Assembly: GCA_035486275.1 (NCBI GenBank)
Contig: DATHNG010000063.1
Span: 32,616-96,615 of the forward strand
Source of the DNA: Bacteroidia bacterium
GTDB lineage: Bacteria; Bacteroidota; Bacteroidia; JABEUT01
Direction of reading: 5' to 3'
Length of the DNA stretch: 64,000 nt
Below, piece after piece: positions 13,413-24,468 of the stretch. Below the pieces are notes generated by a model. It did no database searches and was not told the origin of the DNA. It saw nothing but the letters and a program-made list of their open reading frames with translations. The position numbers and the translations under genes were made by a program. Numbering within the stretch: the stretch's first letter is position 1; every line of letters begins with the position of its first letter.

Positions 13413-13487
13413 CGGGGTGTAGCGTAGTCTGGTTATCGCGCCTGCTTTGGGAGCAGGAGGTCGTCAGTTCGAATCTGGCCACCCCGA
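13413..13487 (+). tRNA. tRNA-Pro(TGG): tRNA-Pro (anticodon TGG)
   Basis: Cloverleaf read by eye: acceptor CGGGGTG/CACCCCG, anticodon stem CCTGC/GCAGG, loop TTTGGGA, T-loop GTTCGAATC; no encoded CCA. Confidence 0.85.
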
Positions 13488-13509: not shown

Positions 13510-13583
13510 GATCCCGTAGCTCAGCTGGATAGAGCAACAGATTTCTAATCTGTCGGTCGTGGGTTCGAATCTCGCCGGGATCA
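13510..13583 (+). tRNA. tRNA-Arg(TCT): tRNA-Arg (anticodon TCT)
   Basis: Acceptor GATCCCG/CGGGATC, D-arm AGCTCAGCTGGATAGAGC, anticodon stem ACAGA/TCTGT, loop TTTCTAA, T-loop GTTCGAATC. Confidence 0.85.
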
Positions 13584-20863: not shown

Positions 20864-22298
20864 TTGTGGCAGATATCAAAAGCCCTGTAAATGTAATCAA
20901 AGCATTCAAAATAAGCAATTCGAAGCCGAATTGGTACCCCTTGAACCACTCTTTGGAATGGGTATCAAGCATATAGCAAATAACCGGCGATAACAGGCAG
21001 ACAAAAGGAATCCAGCTATCATTAGTCTTTATTTTAGTAAGTAAACCAAATGCATAGAGCCCTAGTAAAGGCCCATAAGTATAACCTGCCACTTTAAATA
21101 CATCTTGAATTATAGCCTGGTTATTGATAAGGCGATATATAACTATTACAATGATTAACACAATTGCCATAAGAATGTGAATGTTCTTACGTGTTCTTTC
21201 CTGCGTTTCTTTTTCCTTTTCTTTTATATCCAGTATATCTACACAAAAAGATGTAGTGAGTGCCGTCAGTGCAGAATCGGCACTTGCAAACGAAGCGGCT
21301 GTTATACCCATTACGAAAAGGAAAGCGACTATGGTTCCGAAATAGCCCTGAGTCGCCAGCATGGGGTAAAGATCGTCTGACTTTGCCGGTACTGTAACGT
21401 GATTAGCTTCTACATATGCATACAACAATGAACCTAATGCAAGAAACATAAATACTACTATAGCCTGAACAATACTAAACCAGAAAATATTCTTTTGCGA
21501 TTCGCCTATTGTTTTACAGGTAAGATTCTTTTGCATCATATCCTGATCGAGACCAGTCATGGCAATAGCAATAAACACTCCCGCGAAGAACTGTTTAAAG
21601 AAAAACAGTTTACTGTTATAATCCCAGTAAAACATTTTTGAATAAGGCGAAGCAGCAACAGTGCTTGCCAGATCTGAAATATGTAAATGCAATGATTGTG
21701 TTATCAGGAATATACTGCCGACAAGTGCGGCAAGCAAAAAGAAAGTTTGTAAGGCATCGGTCCATATAATAGTTTTCATACCGCCACTTCGCGTATAAAG
21801 CCATATCAGTGCCACTATAATTGAAGCAGTTACCACAAAGGGAACATCCCACTGATTAAAAATGCAACCTTGCAATACATCCACCGCTACATATATGCGG
21901 AATGATGCACCAATAATACGAGAGAGTAAAAAATAAGAGGCACCTGTTTTATATCCATATCGCCCAAACCGTTCTTTTAAATAAGTATAAATAGAGGTCA
22001 GCTGCATGCGGTAGAACACCGGCATTAATACCCATGCAATTATCCAGTACCCCAGAATGTACCCCAGTACAACTTCATAATATGAAAAACCAATTGATTT
22101 TACTGCACCCGGCACAGAAATAAATGTCACCCCTGAAATTGAAGAGCCAATCATGCCAAATGCAATAAGGTACCAGGGTGATTTGCGGTTAGCCAAAAAG
22201 AAACCTTCATTGGTGCTATTGCGTCCTGTGATATAGGAAACAGCCATAAGGACTGCAAAATAAGACATAAGGCAAATTAGTATGGCCGATGCTGACAC
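20832..22298 (-). CDS. Sodium:solute symporter (SSF) family transporter
   Basis: 488 aa, ~13 TM; N-terminus typical of SSF (FFLANRKSPWYLIAFGMIGSSISGVTFISVPG). The 3' end overlaps the patatin gene start by 17-32 bp. Confidence 0.6.
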   Translation of the reverse strand: MSASAILICLMSYFAVLMAVSYITGRNSTNEGFFLANRKSPWYLIAFGMIGSSISGVTFISVPGAVKSIGFSYYEVVLGYILGYWIIAWVLMPVFYRMQLTSIYTYLKERFGRYGYKTGASYFLLSRIIGASFRIYVAVDVLQGCIFNQWDVPFVVTASIIVALIWLYTRSGGMKTIIWTDALQTFFLLAALVGSIFLITQSLHLHISDLASTVAASPYSKMFYWDYNSKLFFFKQFFAGVFIAIAMTGLDQDMMQKNLTCKTIGESQKNIFWFSIVQAIVVFMFLALGSLLYAYVEANHVTVPAKSDDLYPMLATQGYFGTIVAFLFVMGITAASFASADSALTALTTSFCVDILDIKEKEKETQERTRKNIHILMAIVLIIVIVIYRLINNQAIIQDVFKVAGYTYGPLLGLYAFGLLTKIKTNDSWIPFVCLLSPVICYMLDTHSKEWFKGYQFGFELLILNALITFTGLLISATSAERAHGKNN

Positions 22299-22678
22299 TA
22301 CTCTATCTTTTTGGCGGAATACATTTTCCGGGTAATTACCTTCAACACAATCCGTTTAACTATCAATTCACCCAGGCAGCGATAATAAATATCTGTAGGA
22401 AGCTCTTTAAATGCATTTACTTGCTGTTCCGATACATCAATTCTATACAATACTTCTGATAATTCAGGAGTAATTGATGGAAGATATTTCATTAAGGCAT
22501 TAACTACCAGTTCTGCCGCACGCTCTCCTTTCAGGTCAGAGTGTGGTATGTTTATAGCAAACTCCTTATTTAAGTCCTTGTTTAACTGCAATATAACATC
22601 ATTCCAAAATTCTTCTTTTGAAATGAAATCGGCATACTGTTGAAGGTATGTAAAGTCGTTGAGTGCTATATCGCTCAT
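22298..22678 (-). CDS. Hypothetical protein (start taken at MSDIALNDF...)
   Basis: ORF with a -7 box TAAATTTG on the minus strand (plus coordinates 22696-22703) just upstream of the internal ATG; the longer ORF reaching 22735 is probably an over-extension. Confidence 0.35.
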   Translation of the reverse strand: MSDIALNDFTYLQQYADFISKEEFWNDVILQLNKDLNKEFAINIPHSDLKGERAAELVVNALMKYLPSITPELSEVLYRIDVSEQQVNAFKELPTDIYYRCLGELIVKRIVLKVITRKMYSAKKIE

Positions 22679-22732
22679 AGGTGTTATCTGCTTTCCAAAT
22701 TTACTCAGATTATCAATACAACGGCAAAGTCT

Positions 22733-22833
22733 CACTACTACTTTTAGGGCGTTCCCCTTCGGGTCGGGCTATCCGTTACAACTCCGCGCTGCGCTTGCGG
22801 GGTTTTCACTACTATCCCTAACGCGAAATACAT
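22733..22833. repeat. Left copy of a ~90-100-nt structured repeat: outer 31-nt box GGGCGTTCCCCTTCGGGTCGGGCTATCCGTT (22747-22777), GC hairpin, inner 27-nt box CACTACTATCCCTAACGCGAAATACAT (22807-22833)
   Basis: Both boxes recur as reverse complements at 23290-23320 (30/31 identical) and 23224-23250 (27/27 identical). Confidence 0.7.
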
Positions 22834-22860
22834 TTGGTAAATAGGTACATTTAAAAAATC

Positions 22861-22868
22861 TAAATTTG
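22861..22868 (+). promoter_or_regulatory. -7 box TAAATTTG for the ATL gene, located inside the inverted-repeat-bounded segment
   Basis: TAnnTTTG match 17 nt before the ATG at 22886. Confidence 0.35.
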
Positions 22869-22885
22869 TACAACAAGTTTATGAC

Positions 22886-23215
22886 ATGAGTGAATTTTAC
22901 GAAATGATTTATGAAGTGGTGCGCCACGTGCCTAAGGGCAGGGTTACCAGTTACGGGGCTATTGCCAAATACTTGGGTGCAGCACAGTCATCGCGCATGG
23001 TGGGCTGGGCCATGAACCAGGCACATGGTAAAAAACCACCCGTACCTGCTCACAGGGTTGTAAATCGTACCGGTATGTTATCGGGTAAACATCATTTCGG
23101 GCATCCTAAACTTATGGAGCAGATGCTTGCTAAAGAGGGGATTAAGGTAAAAAAAGACCAGGTGCAAAACTTCAAGAAGGTATTCTGGGATCCAGCTATA
23201 GAACTTGCACTATAG
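22886..23215 (+). CDS. Alkyltransferase-like (ATL) protein of the MGMT/Ogt DNA-binding-domain family, non-catalytic (Cys->Ala)
   Basis: 109 aa; VPKGRVTSYGAIAKYLG....R.VGWAM......PAHRVVN.TG. The PCHRV active site is replaced by PAHRV. Confidence 0.7.
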   Translation: MSEFYEMIYEVVRHVPKGRVTSYGAIAKYLGAAQSSRMVGWAMNQAHGKKPPVPAHRVVNRTGMLSGKHHFGHPKLMEQMLAKEGIKVKKDQVQNFKKVFWDPAIELAL

Positions 23216-23223
23216 TTACGTCC

Positions 23224-23320
23224 ATGTATTTCGCGTTAGGGATAGTAGTGGAAAGCCCAAAGCCCCGGGTATTCGGGGCGAGGACTTGGAACGGATAGCC
23301 CGACCCGGAGGGGAACGCCC
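23224..23320. repeat. Right copy of the structured repeat, in inverted orientation: inner box 23224-23250, GCCCCG-loop-CGGGGC hairpin, outer box 23290-23320
   Basis: Reverse complement of the left copy; 58 of ~90 nt conserved with divergent central hairpins. Confidence 0.7.
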
Positions 23321-23376
23321 AGAAAATTACAGAACAAGGCTTAAAAATTCATAGCTTTACGTAAAATTTCCCGTAT

Positions 23377-24468
23377 ATGATAACTAAAGAACAAGTATTA
23401 GAAGCGCTTAAAAATGTAATAGACCCCGACTTCGATAAAGATATAGTAACACTTGGCATGGTGCAAGATGTTGTAGTAGATGGTAAAAAAGTAAGTTTTA
23501 CGGTTGTACTTACAACCCCCGCATGCCCAATGAAAGAAATGATACACAAGGCGAGTGTAAATGCTATAATATATTATGTAGATAAAGAAGCAGAAGTAAA
23601 TGTAACCATGAGCGCAAAAGTGACCTCAAAGAGGACAACAAAAAGTGCAGCACTCCCACAGGTAAAAAATATTATTGCTGTGGCATCAGGCAAAGGTGGT
23701 GTAGGAAAATCTACTGTTGCGGCTAACCTCGCAGTAGCATTGGCTATGCAAGGGGCAAAGGTTGGCTTGCTCGATGCTGATATTTATGGTCCATCGGTAC
23801 CTATGATGTTCGACGTACAAGATGAAAAGCCATTGTTAGAAGATATTGGTGGCAAAACATATATGGTTCCGGTTGAACATTACGGGGTGAAATTACTTTC
23901 AATCGGTTTCTTTGTTACCAATGCACAGGCAGTGGTGTGGAGAGGACCAATGGCATCAAAGGCTTTTCAGCAATTGGTGAATGATGCAGCCTGGGGCGAA
24001 TTAGATTATTTATTTATTGACCTTCCTCCGGGAACAGGTGATATTCAACTCTCATTGGTTTCTACAGCATCGGTTACAGGAGCTGTGATAGTTAGCACTC
24101 CGCAAAACATTGCTTTGCTAGACGTGCGTAAAGCAGTTACCATGTTTGCACATAAAGATATTAATGTGCCGGTACTTGGTGTAGTTGAGAATATGGCATA
24201 TTTTACTCCTGCTGAGTTGCCAAACAACAAATACTACATCTTCGGGAAAGATGGCGCAAAGACATTAGCTGATGAACTAAAAGTTCCTTTCCTAGGCCAG
24301 GTGCCATTAGTGCAAAGCATTTGCGAAGCAGGTGATGCAGGCCGCCCGGCAGTATTACAGCAAGATACTCCGCAGGCAATTGCATTTATGGAAGTGGCAC
24401 GCAATGTAGCACAACAAGTAGCTATAGCTAATAACAAGAAGGAAGAAAAGCAGTTAGAGCACGCGTAA
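23377..24468 (+). CDS. apbC: Mrp/NBP35-family Fe-S cluster carrier ATPase (ApbC) with N-terminal DUF59 domain
   Basis: DUF59-like N-term (VLEALKNVIDPDFDKDIV), P-loop ASGKGGVGKSTVAANLA, Mrp signature. Confidence 0.8.
   Translation: MITKEQVLEALKNVIDPDFDKDIVTLGMVQDVVVDGKKVSFTVVLTTPACPMKEMIHKASVNAIIYYVDKEAEVNVTMSAKVTSKRTTKSAALPQVKNIIAVASGKGGVGKSTVAANLAVALAMQGAKVGLLDADIYGPSVPMMFDVQDEKPLLEDIGGKTYMVPVEHYGVKLLSIGFFVTNAQAVVWRGPMASKAFQQLVNDAAWGELDYLFIDLPPGTGDIQLSLVSTASVTGAVIVSTPQNIALLDVRKAVTMFAHKDINVPVLGVVENMAYFTPAELPNNKYYIFGKDGAKTLADELKVPFLGQVPLVQSICEAGDAGRPAVLQQDTPQAIAFMEVARNVAQQVAIANNKKEEKQLEHA

What the first reader, a model, noticed from the sequence alone, without database searches (positions are those of the whole stretch)
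22733..23325. Complete ATL gene plus its promoter enclosed by a nested, imperfect ~90-nt inverted repeat
Two boxes occur on both sides of a 330-bp ORF, in opposite orientation. The outer box is 31 nt (GGGCGTTCCCCTTCGGGTCGGGCTATCCGTT, 22747-22777, versus 23290-23320, 30/31 identical). The inner box is 27 nt (CACTACTATCCCTAACGCGAAATACAT, 22807-22833, versus 23224-23250, 27/27 identical). Each copy has a different GC hairpin between its boxes. The left copy sits exactly between two divergent promoters: the minus-strand TAAATTTG at 22696-22703 and the plus-strand TAAATTTG at 22861-22868. It is therefore probably not part of either mRNA. The right copy starts 9 bp after the ATL stop codon. This geometry fits several alternatives. 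(a) A small non-autonomous mobile or cassette-like element with structured terminal inverted repeats that carries a promoter and an ATL gene as cargo. (b) Two copies of a dispersed structured repeat or sRNA family that recruited the gene between them. (c) A site-specific inversion module. No recombinase or transposase is present in the window.
Basis: seen in the sequence. Interest (0 to 1): 0.72.

Follow-up and report, generated by a model that had tools for sequence, protein, structure and literature searches.

The report
Two Flavo-1 repeat copies flanking ATL
The "inverted repeat enclosing a DNA-repair-like gene" is two separately acquired copies of Flavo-1, a known, widespread Bacteroidota structured repeat of unknown function, sitting in the spacers either side of a gene that was already there, so it is not a gene cassette.

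Summary
Two ~90-100-nt elements lie in opposite orientation around the 109-aa ATL gene: 22741-22833 on the minus strand and 23224-23326 on the plus strand.

Both match Rfam RF01705 (Flavo-1) just under its gathering score. They carry the same 12+12-nt core as Flavobacterium copies that pass it.
- a closing helix P1;
- a long hairpin P2 with purine-rich internal loops and a variable tip;
- a short hairpin P3;
- a CCAAA tail.

P1 covaries strongly: 21 pair types among 118 copies.

The same core occurs in at least 120 loci across Bacteroidota and on 78 Bacteroidales plasmid records.

ATL-mrp synteny is kept in relatives that have no copy. The right copy is shared by relatives down to 84% ATL identity. 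The left copy is missing from one close relative (ATL 97%). So ATL is resident, not cargo, and the two copies differ in age.

I found no target-site duplication, no recombinase among the called genes seen, and no inverted variant. The family's function is still unknown.

One odd point remains: close pairs elsewhere are also mostly outward-facing (4 of 5).

The parts
22741..22833 (-). Left Flavo-1-family element, read on the minus strand. 5' flank ATGTATTTC 22833-22825. P1 5' strand GCGTT 22824-22820. Junction A 22819. P2 5' core GGGATAGTAGTG 22818-22807. Variable apex 22806-22778. P2 3' core AACGGATAGCCC 22777-22766. GA plus P3 hairpin CCC-GAAG-GGG 22765-22754. P1 3' strand AACGC 22753-22749. 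Tail CC+TAAAAG 22748-22741.
   Evidence: Rfam RF01705 gives 38.8 bits (gathering score 42), E 1e-6 locally and 1e-4 over the window. My own model R1 gives 86.3 bits, E 3e-21. The minimum-energy fold is a three-way junction, -22.7 kcal/mol.
23224..23326 (+). Right Flavo-1-family element. 5' flank ATGTATTTC 23224-23232. P1 5' GCGTT 23233-23237. A 23238. P2 5' core 23239-23250. Apex 23251-23289. P2 3' core 23290-23301. GA plus P3 CCC-GGAG-GGG 23302-23313. P1 3' AACGC 23314-23318. Tail CC+AGAAAA 23319-23326.
   Evidence: Rfam RF01705 gives 37.3 bits. R1 gives 93.9 bits, E 3e-23. The fold is -32.0 kcal/mol. Orthologous copies are present in L149, L134, L152 and L154.
22886..23215 (+). ATL gene (alkyltransferase-like, 109 aa, PAHR in place of PCHR). 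A resident gene, not part of the repeat.
   Evidence: PF01035. Best solved relatives are Atl1 3GVA and vpAtl 2KIF. Syntenic with mrp in all relatives.
22298..22678 (-). Left neighbour: a 126-aa hypothetical protein, divergent from ATL.
   Evidence: Gene call in L001. No Pfam hit. Conserved to the left of ATL in L003-L006, L134 and L156.
23377..24468 (+). Right neighbour: mrp/apbC Fe-S cluster carrier ATPase.
   Evidence: PF10609 and PF01883.
22861..22868 (+). TAAATTTG, a Bacteroidota-type -7 box for ATL.
   Evidence: A TAnnTTTG box is conserved at the equivalent position in L134, L152, L154, L006, L003 and L156.
22696..22703 (-). TAAATTTG, a -7-like box for the 126-aa gene.
   Evidence: It has the same 17-nt spacing to the ATG as the ATL box.
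23352..23359 (+). TAGCTTTA, a -7-like box upstream of mrp and downstream of the right copy.
   Evidence: A conserved TA(N)CTTTA/G motif sits upstream of mrp in the window, L154, L152, L006, L003, L005 and L007. That it is a promoter is inference.
22829..22836 (+). TACATTTG, a further -7-like match formed at the junction of the left element's flank and the spacer.
   Evidence: The motif is not enriched in the window overall (72 matches against 87 expected), so this is weak evidence.

Best explanation
The locus holds two independent copies of one element. That element is a ~90-100-nt structured intergenic repeat of the Flavo-1 family (Rfam RF01705), which is spread through Bacteroidota chromosomes and Bacteroidales plasmids.

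Each copy folds on one strand into a three-way junction:
- a 5-bp closing helix P1;
- a long hairpin P2 with invariant purine-rich internal loops and a freely varying tip;
- a short hairpin P3;
- a CCAAA tail.

ATL is a resident gene in a conserved hyp126 / ATL / mrp neighbourhood. The right copy entered the ATL-mrp spacer first and is shared by relatives. The left copy is present only in this lineage among those seen. So the inverted geometry comes from two insertions into spacers that also collect other repeats in relatives. It is not the ends of one mobile unit.

How it works is inferred, not shown. The family behaves like a non-autonomous repeat whose fold is kept by selection. The right copy lies on the sense strand directly after the ATL stop and upstream of the mrp -7-like box. 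It would therefore be transcribed as the ATL 3' UTR. There it most likely acts as a stable 3' structure that blocks exonucleases or marks a processing site, as REP elements do. The left copy lies between the two divergent promoters and is probably not transcribed.
For: - Identity: both copies hit Flavo-1. Copies with the same 12+12-nt core in Flavobacterium and Tenacibaculum score 57-68 bits against a gathering score of 42.
78 Bacteroidales plasmid records also match, including B. thetaiotaomicron p5482.
- Structure: P1 is perfectly Watson-Crick in 109 of 118 copies with 21 pair types, against 20 of 117 for a control 5-mer. On alignment A3, 90.4% of cells are paired, and 0 of 500 shuffles reach the observed covariation. 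Core pairs covary in diverged copies.
- Not cargo: the ATL-mrp adjacency holds in L003-L009 and L155/L156, none of which has a copy.
- Different ages: L134 (ATL 97%, Mrp 100% over 361 aa) has the right copy and no left copy. L149, L152 and L154 have the right copy.
- The spacers collect other repeats: L006, L152 and L154 carry an unrelated ~90-nt repeat at the left site, and L003, L006 and L152 carry small GC hairpins.
- Only two copies lie in the 82.5 kb of this contig that I read with this model.
Against: - Both copies fall 3-5 bits below Rfam's gathering score.
- The two copies share nine flanking bases (ATGTATTTC) beyond the family's boundary. That could mean one was copied or converted from the other. 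However, the same flank occurs at an unrelated locus, L146, and in L016.
- In other genomes, close pairs are outward-facing in 4 of 5 cases, like this one. That hints that pair geometry may not be random.
- The spacer in L134 is too diverged to give a clean empty site, so loss of the left copy there cannot be told apart from gain here.
- Nothing here shows transcription, and the proposed RNA role is inference. Family copies have no preferred orientation relative to neighbouring genes. A published Flavobacterium psychrophilum transcriptome found hits in sense, in antisense and outside transcribed regions (PMC9723704).
- In L134 the right copy carries an unstructured 48-nt insertion in its core, so it is dispensable at this locus.
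Confidence: 0.8

Rival explanations
1. The pair is not independent. Flavo-1 copies tend to generate or retain a second, outward-facing copy a few hundred bases away. This could happen by local inverted duplication, by gene conversion, or by selection against direct pairs that would delete the gene between them. On this reading the bracket around ATL is a recurrent product of the family's own biology.
For: In other loci, close pairs less than 1.1 kb apart are (-,+) in L108, L084, L114 and L118, and (-,-) only in L146. That is 4 of 5 against 0.25 expected, P about 0.016. Over all adjacent pairs, 11 are inverted and 3 direct. The window copies share P1, P3 and a 9-nt flank.
Against: The sample is small. 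The left copy's apex is identical to the copy at another locus (L146-1) and unlike the right copy's apex. The enclosed genes are unrelated: ATL, a 161-aa secreted protein, rplL and HU. About 3% of sampled loci have a close partner, which is roughly what chance gives for about 50 copies per genome.
Confidence: 0.15
2. The two copies are the ends of a small non-autonomous mobile or cassette-like element that carries the ATL promoter and gene as cargo.
For: The geometry: inverted, near-identical ends enclosing promoter plus ORF.
Against: ATL lies next to mrp, with a conserved -7 box, in relatives that lack both copies. L134 has one end only. The family shows no target-site duplication. P1 covaries rather than being a fixed terminal repeat. 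No transposase appears among the called genes seen on this contig. The one RAYT-like gene met in any locus (L111) is flanked by a different palindrome.
Confidence: 0.03
3. The pair is a site-specific inversion switch that flips the ATL gene or its promoter.
For: Inverted repeats of about 90 nt lie 390 bp apart and enclose a promoter and a gene.
Against: The window-type assemblies on record that carry both copies (ENA ERZ27253637, JGI 3300021406 and JGI 3300050821, the last seen only as gene calls) show the same orientation, as do all relatives. No invertase or recombinase appears among the called genes seen. The family occurs mostly as single copies.
Confidence: 0.04
4. The copies are locus-specific cis-regulatory RNA structures of the ATL / mrp genes, for example a 3' UTR or leader element tuned to these genes.
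For: The right copy is kept, with its core intact and a re-built hairpin tip, in relatives down to 84% ATL identity. A Flavobacteriales MAG with Mrp at 68% identity also has a copy upstream of mrp in sense orientation (L108).
Against: Relatives at 76-83% ATL identity lack it. L134 keeps Mrp 100% identical over 361 aa while its copy is interrupted by an unstructured 48-nt insert. The family sits next to unrelated genes in either orientation.
Confidence: 0.1

Closest known systems
Flavo-1 RNA motif (Rfam RF01705; Weinberg et al. 2010, PMC2864571)
   Same: It has the same long hairpin with conserved purine-rich internal loops. Its core GGGAUAGUAGUG / AACGGAUAGCCC is identical to that of Flavobacterium and Tenacibaculum copies that pass the gathering score. 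It is found in Bacteroidota, in several copies per genome, in intergenic positions, with no known function.
   Different: The window copies score 37-39 bits against a gathering score of 42. Their apex is the GC-rich GCCC...GGAC type rather than the AU-rich type the model favours. The Rfam model and the 2010 alignment cover only the hairpin and leave the GCGUUA flank unpaired. Here the element extends to a covarying closing helix P1, a second hairpin P3 and a CCAAA tail.
REP / BIME elements and REPtrons (RAYT / TnpA-REP)
   Same: Both are short, structured, intergenic, multi-copy elements. Both are present or absent between relatives and often occur in inverted pairs. Both can affect mRNA 3' ends when transcribed.
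   Different: It is not a simple 20-40-nt palindrome with a 5' GTAG or CGTC foot. It is a ~90-nt three-way junction whose loop nucleotides are conserved across classes. No RAYT gene is associated with it. The only RAYT-like gene seen (L111) is flanked by a different palindrome. Bacteroidetes RAYTs of subclass 2.6 are reported to have 'atypical secondary structures' (PMC6006769). Whether any of those is Flavo-1 was not settled.
MITEs and structured repeats such as Correia (NEMIS), ERIC, BOX/RUP and bcr1
   Same: Both are non-autonomous, about 100 nt long, limited to intergenic regions, polymorphic between strains, and folded when transcribed.
   Different: It has no target-site duplication. It has no fixed terminal inverted repeat, since P1 covaries through 21 types. 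Its core is conserved across a whole phylum.
Integron gene cassettes (attC)
   Same: In both, a structured imperfect palindrome sits next to a small promoter-proximal ORF.
   Different: attC sites are direct rather than inverted, and there is one per cassette. They have RYYYAAC / GTTRRRY cores, which these ends do not match on inspection. No intI is nearby, and the gene is syntenic rather than cassette-borne.

Membership tests
Rfam RF01705 Flavo-1 | Covariance-model score at or above the curated gathering score (42 bits) | tested here: not met
   The two copies score 38.8 and 37.3 bits, with E 1e-6 and 3e-6 locally and 1e-4 and 2.5e-4 over the window. This is an operating cut-off rather than a biological feature. 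All GC-apex copies tested score 34-38 bits, while AU-apex Flavobacterium copies with the same core score 57-68.
Rfam RF01705 Flavo-1 | Long hairpin with conserved internal-loop nucleotides (GGGAUAGUAGUG opposite AACGGAUAGCCC) | tested here: met
   Both copies carry the exact 12+12-nt core and align across the whole model, positions 1-76. The same core is found in at least 120 loci. The helix pairs covary in diverged copies.
Rfam RF01705 Flavo-1 | Bacteroidota host, multi-copy, intergenic | tested here: met
   The contig encodes Por_Secre_tail (T9SS) proteins, and its relatives are Bacteroidia MAGs. The family has several loci per genome. 4 of 122 copies fell inside my ORF calls and the rest lay between ORFs or at locus edges.
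REP / REPtron (RAYT-associated) | A RAYT (Y1 HUH) gene flanked by the same repeats, and a 5' GTAG or CGTC foot next to a simple palindrome | tested here: not met
   A motif scan of all loci and the window found one RAYT-like ORF (L111, NHFH...YIHNNP). It is flanked by AAACCCCTTCAGAGTT-type palindromes, not Flavo-1. No RAYT was seen near the window copies.
MITE / composite transposon | Target-site duplication and conserved terminal inverted repeats, with cargo moving together with the ends | tested here: not met
   Flanking k-mer matches equal the shuffled expectation for k = 4 to 7. P1 covaries. ATL is syntenic without the ends.
Invertible DNA switch (inverton) | Both orientations present in the population, and a nearby invertase | tested here: inconclusive
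   Only one orientation appears in all assemblies seen, and no recombinase appears among the called genes seen. Assemblies collapse minority orientations, and reads were not available.
Integron cassette / attC | Direct attC sites with R''/R' cores, and intI nearby | tested here: not met
   The copies are inverted. On inspection the ends read GCGTTAGGGA and GGGGAACGCC, which do not fit GTTRRRY / RYYYAAC. No integrase appears among the called genes seen.
Independent sRNA gene | Own conserved promoter upstream and terminator downstream | tested here: not met
   Position-specific counts over 108 copies show no conservation more than 8 nt upstream of the P2 core (2 nt 5' of P1) or beyond CCAAA downstream. 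There is no TAnnTTTG box and no U-tract. No terminator-like site lies at either window copy.

The most novel reading that the evidence does not exclude
Flavo-1 elements may be strand-specific structured mobile elements that tend to settle, or to survive, as outward-facing inverted pairs bracketing a single short gene. Examples here are ATL in the window, rplL in a Saprospiraceae MAG, and a secreted protein next to mrp in a Flavobacteriales MAG. Such a pair would form a gene-bracketing module that could mediate inversion, excision or insulation of the enclosed gene. Spread between lineages could be helped by conjugative Bacteroidales plasmids.
Probability: 0.1. Interest if true: 0.65.

Novelty: new member of a known kind. 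Interest (0 to 1): 0.3.

Why it matters
For this locus the answer is ordinary. A resident ATL gene happens to sit between two copies of a known repeat, so there is no new cassette or switch.

The wider value is modest but real. Flavo-1 is one of the most abundant "sRNA" families in Rfam (PMC9029176) and has had no function since 2010. The data gathered here add four things:
- It is a larger, three-stem element with sharp ends and strong covariation.
- It is gained, lost and interrupted between close relatives, while kept copies retain the fold.
- It has no promoter of its own and no fixed orientation relative to genes.
- It rides on Bacteroides plasmids such as p5482, in an organism where transcriptome maps and genetics exist.

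Together these make the question "RNA, single-stranded DNA or selfish repeat?" directly testable.

Tried and rejected
- RAYT/REPtron idea. [quoted passage not shown] The one RAYT-like gene in about 1.2 Mb of fetched loci (L111) is flanked by a different palindrome and lies 1.4 kb from the Flavo-1 copy. The idea is not supported. It was not tested genome-wide.
- Target-site duplications: none above shuffled expectation.
- G-U against A-C strand test: G-U counts are similar on both strands (180 against 165). Only the folding energy favours the Rfam strand, in 95 of 107 copies by a mean of -4.2 kcal/mol. This is weak evidence for strand.
- Single-copy folding z-scores of the window copies with loose flanks were unremarkable. 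The fold became clear only with the correct boundaries.
- tRNA-like reading of 'closing helix plus CCA': noted from the tail statistics (CCAAA in 61 of 109 copies). Nothing else supported it, and I did not pursue it.
- Inserts at the same point of the core (GGGAT|T) in L134 and L150 were tested as possible extra stems. Both fold no better than shuffles, so I treat them as disruptions. L141 has an insert at the same point, but I did not fold that insert on its own.
- The third row of alignment A2 (L149) used wrong coordinates and should be ignored. The L149 copy was read correctly.
- Searches failed on input limits.
- I could not see the left site in L149 (658-kb contig). Its proteins differ from the window's by a few residues, so exact look-up was not possible.

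Full report
**1. The observation**

The sequence is as described.
- The 31-nt outer box occurs at 22747-22777 (+) and 23290-23320 (-) with one mismatch.
- The 27-nt inner box occurs at 22807-22833 (+) and 23224-23250 (-) with none.
- Neither box occurs elsewhere in the window, and shuffles give zero matches.
- The repeat finder reports the same arms.
- The two copies align over ~95 nt apart from a central stretch that differs in length and sequence.
- The enclosed ORF, 22886-23215, is a PF01035 domain. Its closest solved relatives are S. pombe Atl1 and V. parahaemolyticus Atl. It reads PAHR where alkyltransferases carry the acceptor cysteine. So it is an ATL.

**2. What the repeat is**

A permissive Rfam scan matches both copies, over the full model, to RF01705 Flavo-1. 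The left copy matches on the minus strand (22829-22758, 38.8 bits). The right copy matches on the plus strand (23228-23309, 37.3 bits). The gathering score is 42.

I scanned species-representative genomes for the two paired core strands, GGGCTATCCGTT ... CACTACTATCCC. Hits fell in Flavobacteriia, Chitinophagia, Cytophagia, Sphingobacteriia and Saprospiria, plus two MAGs labelled Spirochaetales and Bosea. Copies from Flavobacterium and Tenacibaculum with this exact core score 57-68 bits in Rfam. All copies with the GC-rich apex seen here score 34-38. The window copies therefore belong to the family and fall short only because of their apex type.

**3. Anatomy**

Lining up 122 copies shows more than the Rfam hairpin.
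- Directly 5' of the core lies GCGUU-A, and 4-82 nt 3' of it lies its complement. In 109 of 118 copies the five pairs are perfectly Watson-Crick, in 21 different combinations. A control 5-mer taken 30 nt further upstream reaches that in 20 of 117.
- On a 79-sequence alignment, 90.4% of cells are paired under the proposed structure. Every P1 pair shows double changes. None of 500 shuffles reaches the observed covariation, and sliding the partners drops pairing to 27-47%.
- Between the core and the 3' strand of P1 lies a short hairpin of variable length (P3).
- After P1 comes CC, then AAA. Conservation stops sharply 2 nt 5' of P1 and after CCAAA.
- Diverged copies show compensatory changes inside the core as well. 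An example is GGGAUUGCAGCG / AGCGUAAAGCCC.
- With the right boundaries, both window copies fold as this three-way junction, at -32.0 and -22.7 kcal/mol.

|---|---|
| Outer box | P1 3' strand + P3 + P2 3' strand |
| Inner box | P2 5' strand + P1 5' strand + 9 flanking bases |
| "Different GC hairpin" | Variable tip of P2 |

**4. Is ATL cargo?**

No. I fetched contigs encoding close ATL homologues. I also found two near relatives through a metagenome scan for the P3 / P1 end. The metagenome scan did not return the window's own JGI contig, so that collection is incomplete for this purpose.

| Locus | ATL identity | Left site (hyp126-ATL spacer) | Right site (ATL-mrp spacer) |
|---|---|---|---|
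| Window | 100% | Flavo-1 copy | Flavo-1 copy |
| L134 | 97% (Mrp identical over 361 aa; DNA ~90-93%) | No copy (82-bp spacer) | Copy with an unstructured 48-nt insertion |
| L149 | 100% over the 95 aa seen | Not seen | Copy |
| L152 / L153 | 92% | Unrelated ~90-nt repeat | Copy |
| L154 | 84% | Unrelated ~90-nt repeat | Copy |
| L006 | 82% | Two tandem copies of the unrelated repeat | Other small hairpins, no Flavo-1 |
| L003-L005 | 82% | Small GC hairpin | No copy; an extra 213/214-aa gene lies between ATL and mrp |
| L155 / L156 | 83% | No copy (65-bp spacer in L156) | No copy; ATL is followed after 39 bp by a 206-aa gene (L155), and mrp was not reached |
| L007-L009 | 76% | No copy | No copy (39-bp spacer) |

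ATL sits immediately upstream of mrp/apbC in every relative where the contig reached mrp. In L003-L005 and a third P0004 contig, one extra 213-217-aa gene lies between them.

The kept right copies have an unchanged core and a differently built hairpin tip. The TAnnTTTG box before ATL is conserved in six of seven relatives, whatever lies upstream of it.

So ATL and its promoter are native, and the right copy is the older of the two. The left copy is specific to this lineage among those seen. Both spacers are places where small repeats accumulate.

**5. How many copies here?**

A covariance model built from the 79-sequence alignment finds only the two copies in the window when run without filters. 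They score 93.9 and 86.3 bits, and the next best match scores 13.4. It finds none in a further ~19 kb of the same contig.

Three contigs from the JGI sample that also holds this organism (L133, L136, L146) carry related copies. The copy L146-1 has an apex identical to the left copy and the same (C)ATGTATTT flank, but a covarying core. I cannot show that these contigs belong to the same genome.

**6. Behaviour of the family**

- There are no target-site duplications.
- There is no conserved promoter or terminator.
- There is no orientation rule relative to neighbours. Using crude ORF calls, the classes (-,-), (+,-), (+,+) and (-,+) count 35, 23, 22 and 15. This agrees with the F. psychrophilum transcriptome paper, which found hits in sense, in antisense or outside transcribed regions (PMC9723704).
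- The Rfam strand folds better in 95 of 107 copies, but G-U counts do not separate the strands.
- Full-architecture copies also sit on Bacteroides, Phocaeicola and Parabacteroides plasmids, many of them conjugative, including p5482 of B. thetaiotaomicron VPI-5482. One match occurs in a phage-collection record.
- The original description is a single sentence on taxonomy. Its alignment leaves GCGUUA unpaired.

**7. Mechanism**

The following points are shown:
- the identity of the element;
- its fold, by covariation;
- its dispersal across the phylum;
- that ATL is resident;
- that the two copies differ in age.

The following points are inferred. The right copy lies on the sense strand after the ATL stop, with no terminator before it, and upstream of a conserved -7-like box for mrp (TAGCTTTA, 23352-23359). 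It would therefore be the first stable structure in the ATL 3' UTR. The most likely effect is the one known for REP-type elements: protection of the 3' end, or processing. The left copy lies between the two divergent -7 boxes and is probably silent. Its junction happens to create a further TACATTTG match at 22829-22836, which is weak evidence for anything.

How copies spread is unknown. A RAYT link was tested in the only case available and not supported.

**8. What remains odd**

Where two copies lie within about 1.1 kb in other genomes, four of five pairs are outward-facing like this one (L108, L084, L114, L118; the exception is L146). Each pair encloses an unrelated short gene or stretch. 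This is a small sample (P about 0.016 against random orientation), and I record it as a lead. In L108 one member again sits upstream of mrp.

**9. Verdict**

The cassette reading is contradicted, and the inversion reading is unsupported. The element is a new member of a known family whose function is still open.

Noticed in passing
L108:4228-5168, L084:1971-2901, L114:1078-2416, L118:1930-2478 (compare window 22741-23326): Where two Flavo-1 copies lie less than about 1.1 kb apart, 4 of 5 pairs outside the window are outward-facing (minus, then plus), as in the window. In L108 and L084 the enclosed gene was read: a 161-aa secreted protein and rplL. The one direct pair (L146) encloses an HU gene. 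Over all adjacent pairs, 11 are inverted and 3 direct.
   Followed up: partly
Alignment A3; window 22749-22753 with 22820-22824, and 23233-23237 with 23314-23318: Flavo-1 is larger than the Rfam model. It has a covarying 5-bp closing helix (21 pair types), a second short hairpin, and a conserved CC-AAA tail with sharp ends. The 2010 alignment and the Rfam consensus leave these parts unpaired or outside the model.
   Followed up: yes
L146:1720-1809 against window 22741-22830: A copy on another contig of the same JGI sample has an apex identical to the left copy and the same ATGTATTT flank. It differs at six core positions that change in pairs (GGGATTGCAGCG / AGCGTAAAGCCC). One of these is the non-canonical position 8, which changes from U.G to C.U. 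This looks like two discrete core types on one backbone.
   Followed up: partly
L134:10474-10524; also L141 and L150: Three copies carry an insertion of about 48 nt at the same point of the 5' core arm (GGGAT|T). The L134 and L150 inserts were folded and are unstructured. The inserts are not obviously related to each other. The L134 case is the orthologue of the right copy, in a strain whose Mrp is identical over 361 aa.
   Followed up: partly
L006:3810-3990, L152:140-235, L154:20-110: A different ~90-nt repeat (GAACGCTGATGACAC...ACGGATTTTCACTAATTTAATCCG...CCGTGTTCCA) occupies the hyp126-ATL spacer in three relatives. L006 has two tandem copies. Small GC hairpins of the CCCCTAACCCCTCTC... type occupy the spacers in L003, L006 and L152.
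   Followed up: no
L161 (NC_004703.1 18640-18725) and 77 other plasmid records: Full three-stem Flavo-1 elements (60-64 bits with R1 in the two records checked) occur on Bacteroides, Phocaeicola and Parabacteroides plasmids, often 2-3 per plasmid. One lies next to the tra genes of B. thetaiotaomicron p5482. This is a route for horizontal spread and a tractable experimental system.
   Followed up: partly
L108:3039-4358: In a Flavobacteriales MAG (Kiruna3_bin-3741; Mrp 68% identical) a Flavo-1 copy also lies just upstream of mrp on the same strand. Closer relatives of the window organism lack it.
   Followed up: partly
L111:5022-5705: This is a REPtron-like unit in Epilithonimonas arachidiradicis. 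A RAYT-like ORF (NHFH ... YIHNNP) is flanked on both sides by a 34-nt perfect palindrome (AAACCCCTTCAGAGTT..AACTCTGAAGGGGTT) that is unrelated to Flavo-1.
   Followed up: partly
window 23352-23359 and the equivalent sites in L154, L152, L006, L003, L005, L007: A conserved TA(N)CTTTA/G motif lies 10-40 nt upstream of the mrp start codon in all relatives. It is probably mrp's own -7 box, so ATL and mrp need not form an operon.
   Followed up: partly
L135, L137, L143, L144, L145, L148, L151: One orthologous locus, seen in seven bioreactor and other metagenome contigs, keeps the 3' half of the element (AACGGATAGCCC-P3-P1-CCAAA). Its 5' arm is unlike the canonical core, and R1 still scores the full-length matches at about 67 bits. 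It may be a divergent or partly replaced copy.
   Followed up: no
window 13413-13487 and 13510-13583: Two adjacent tRNA genes are the only Rfam matches above gathering score in the window.
   Followed up: no
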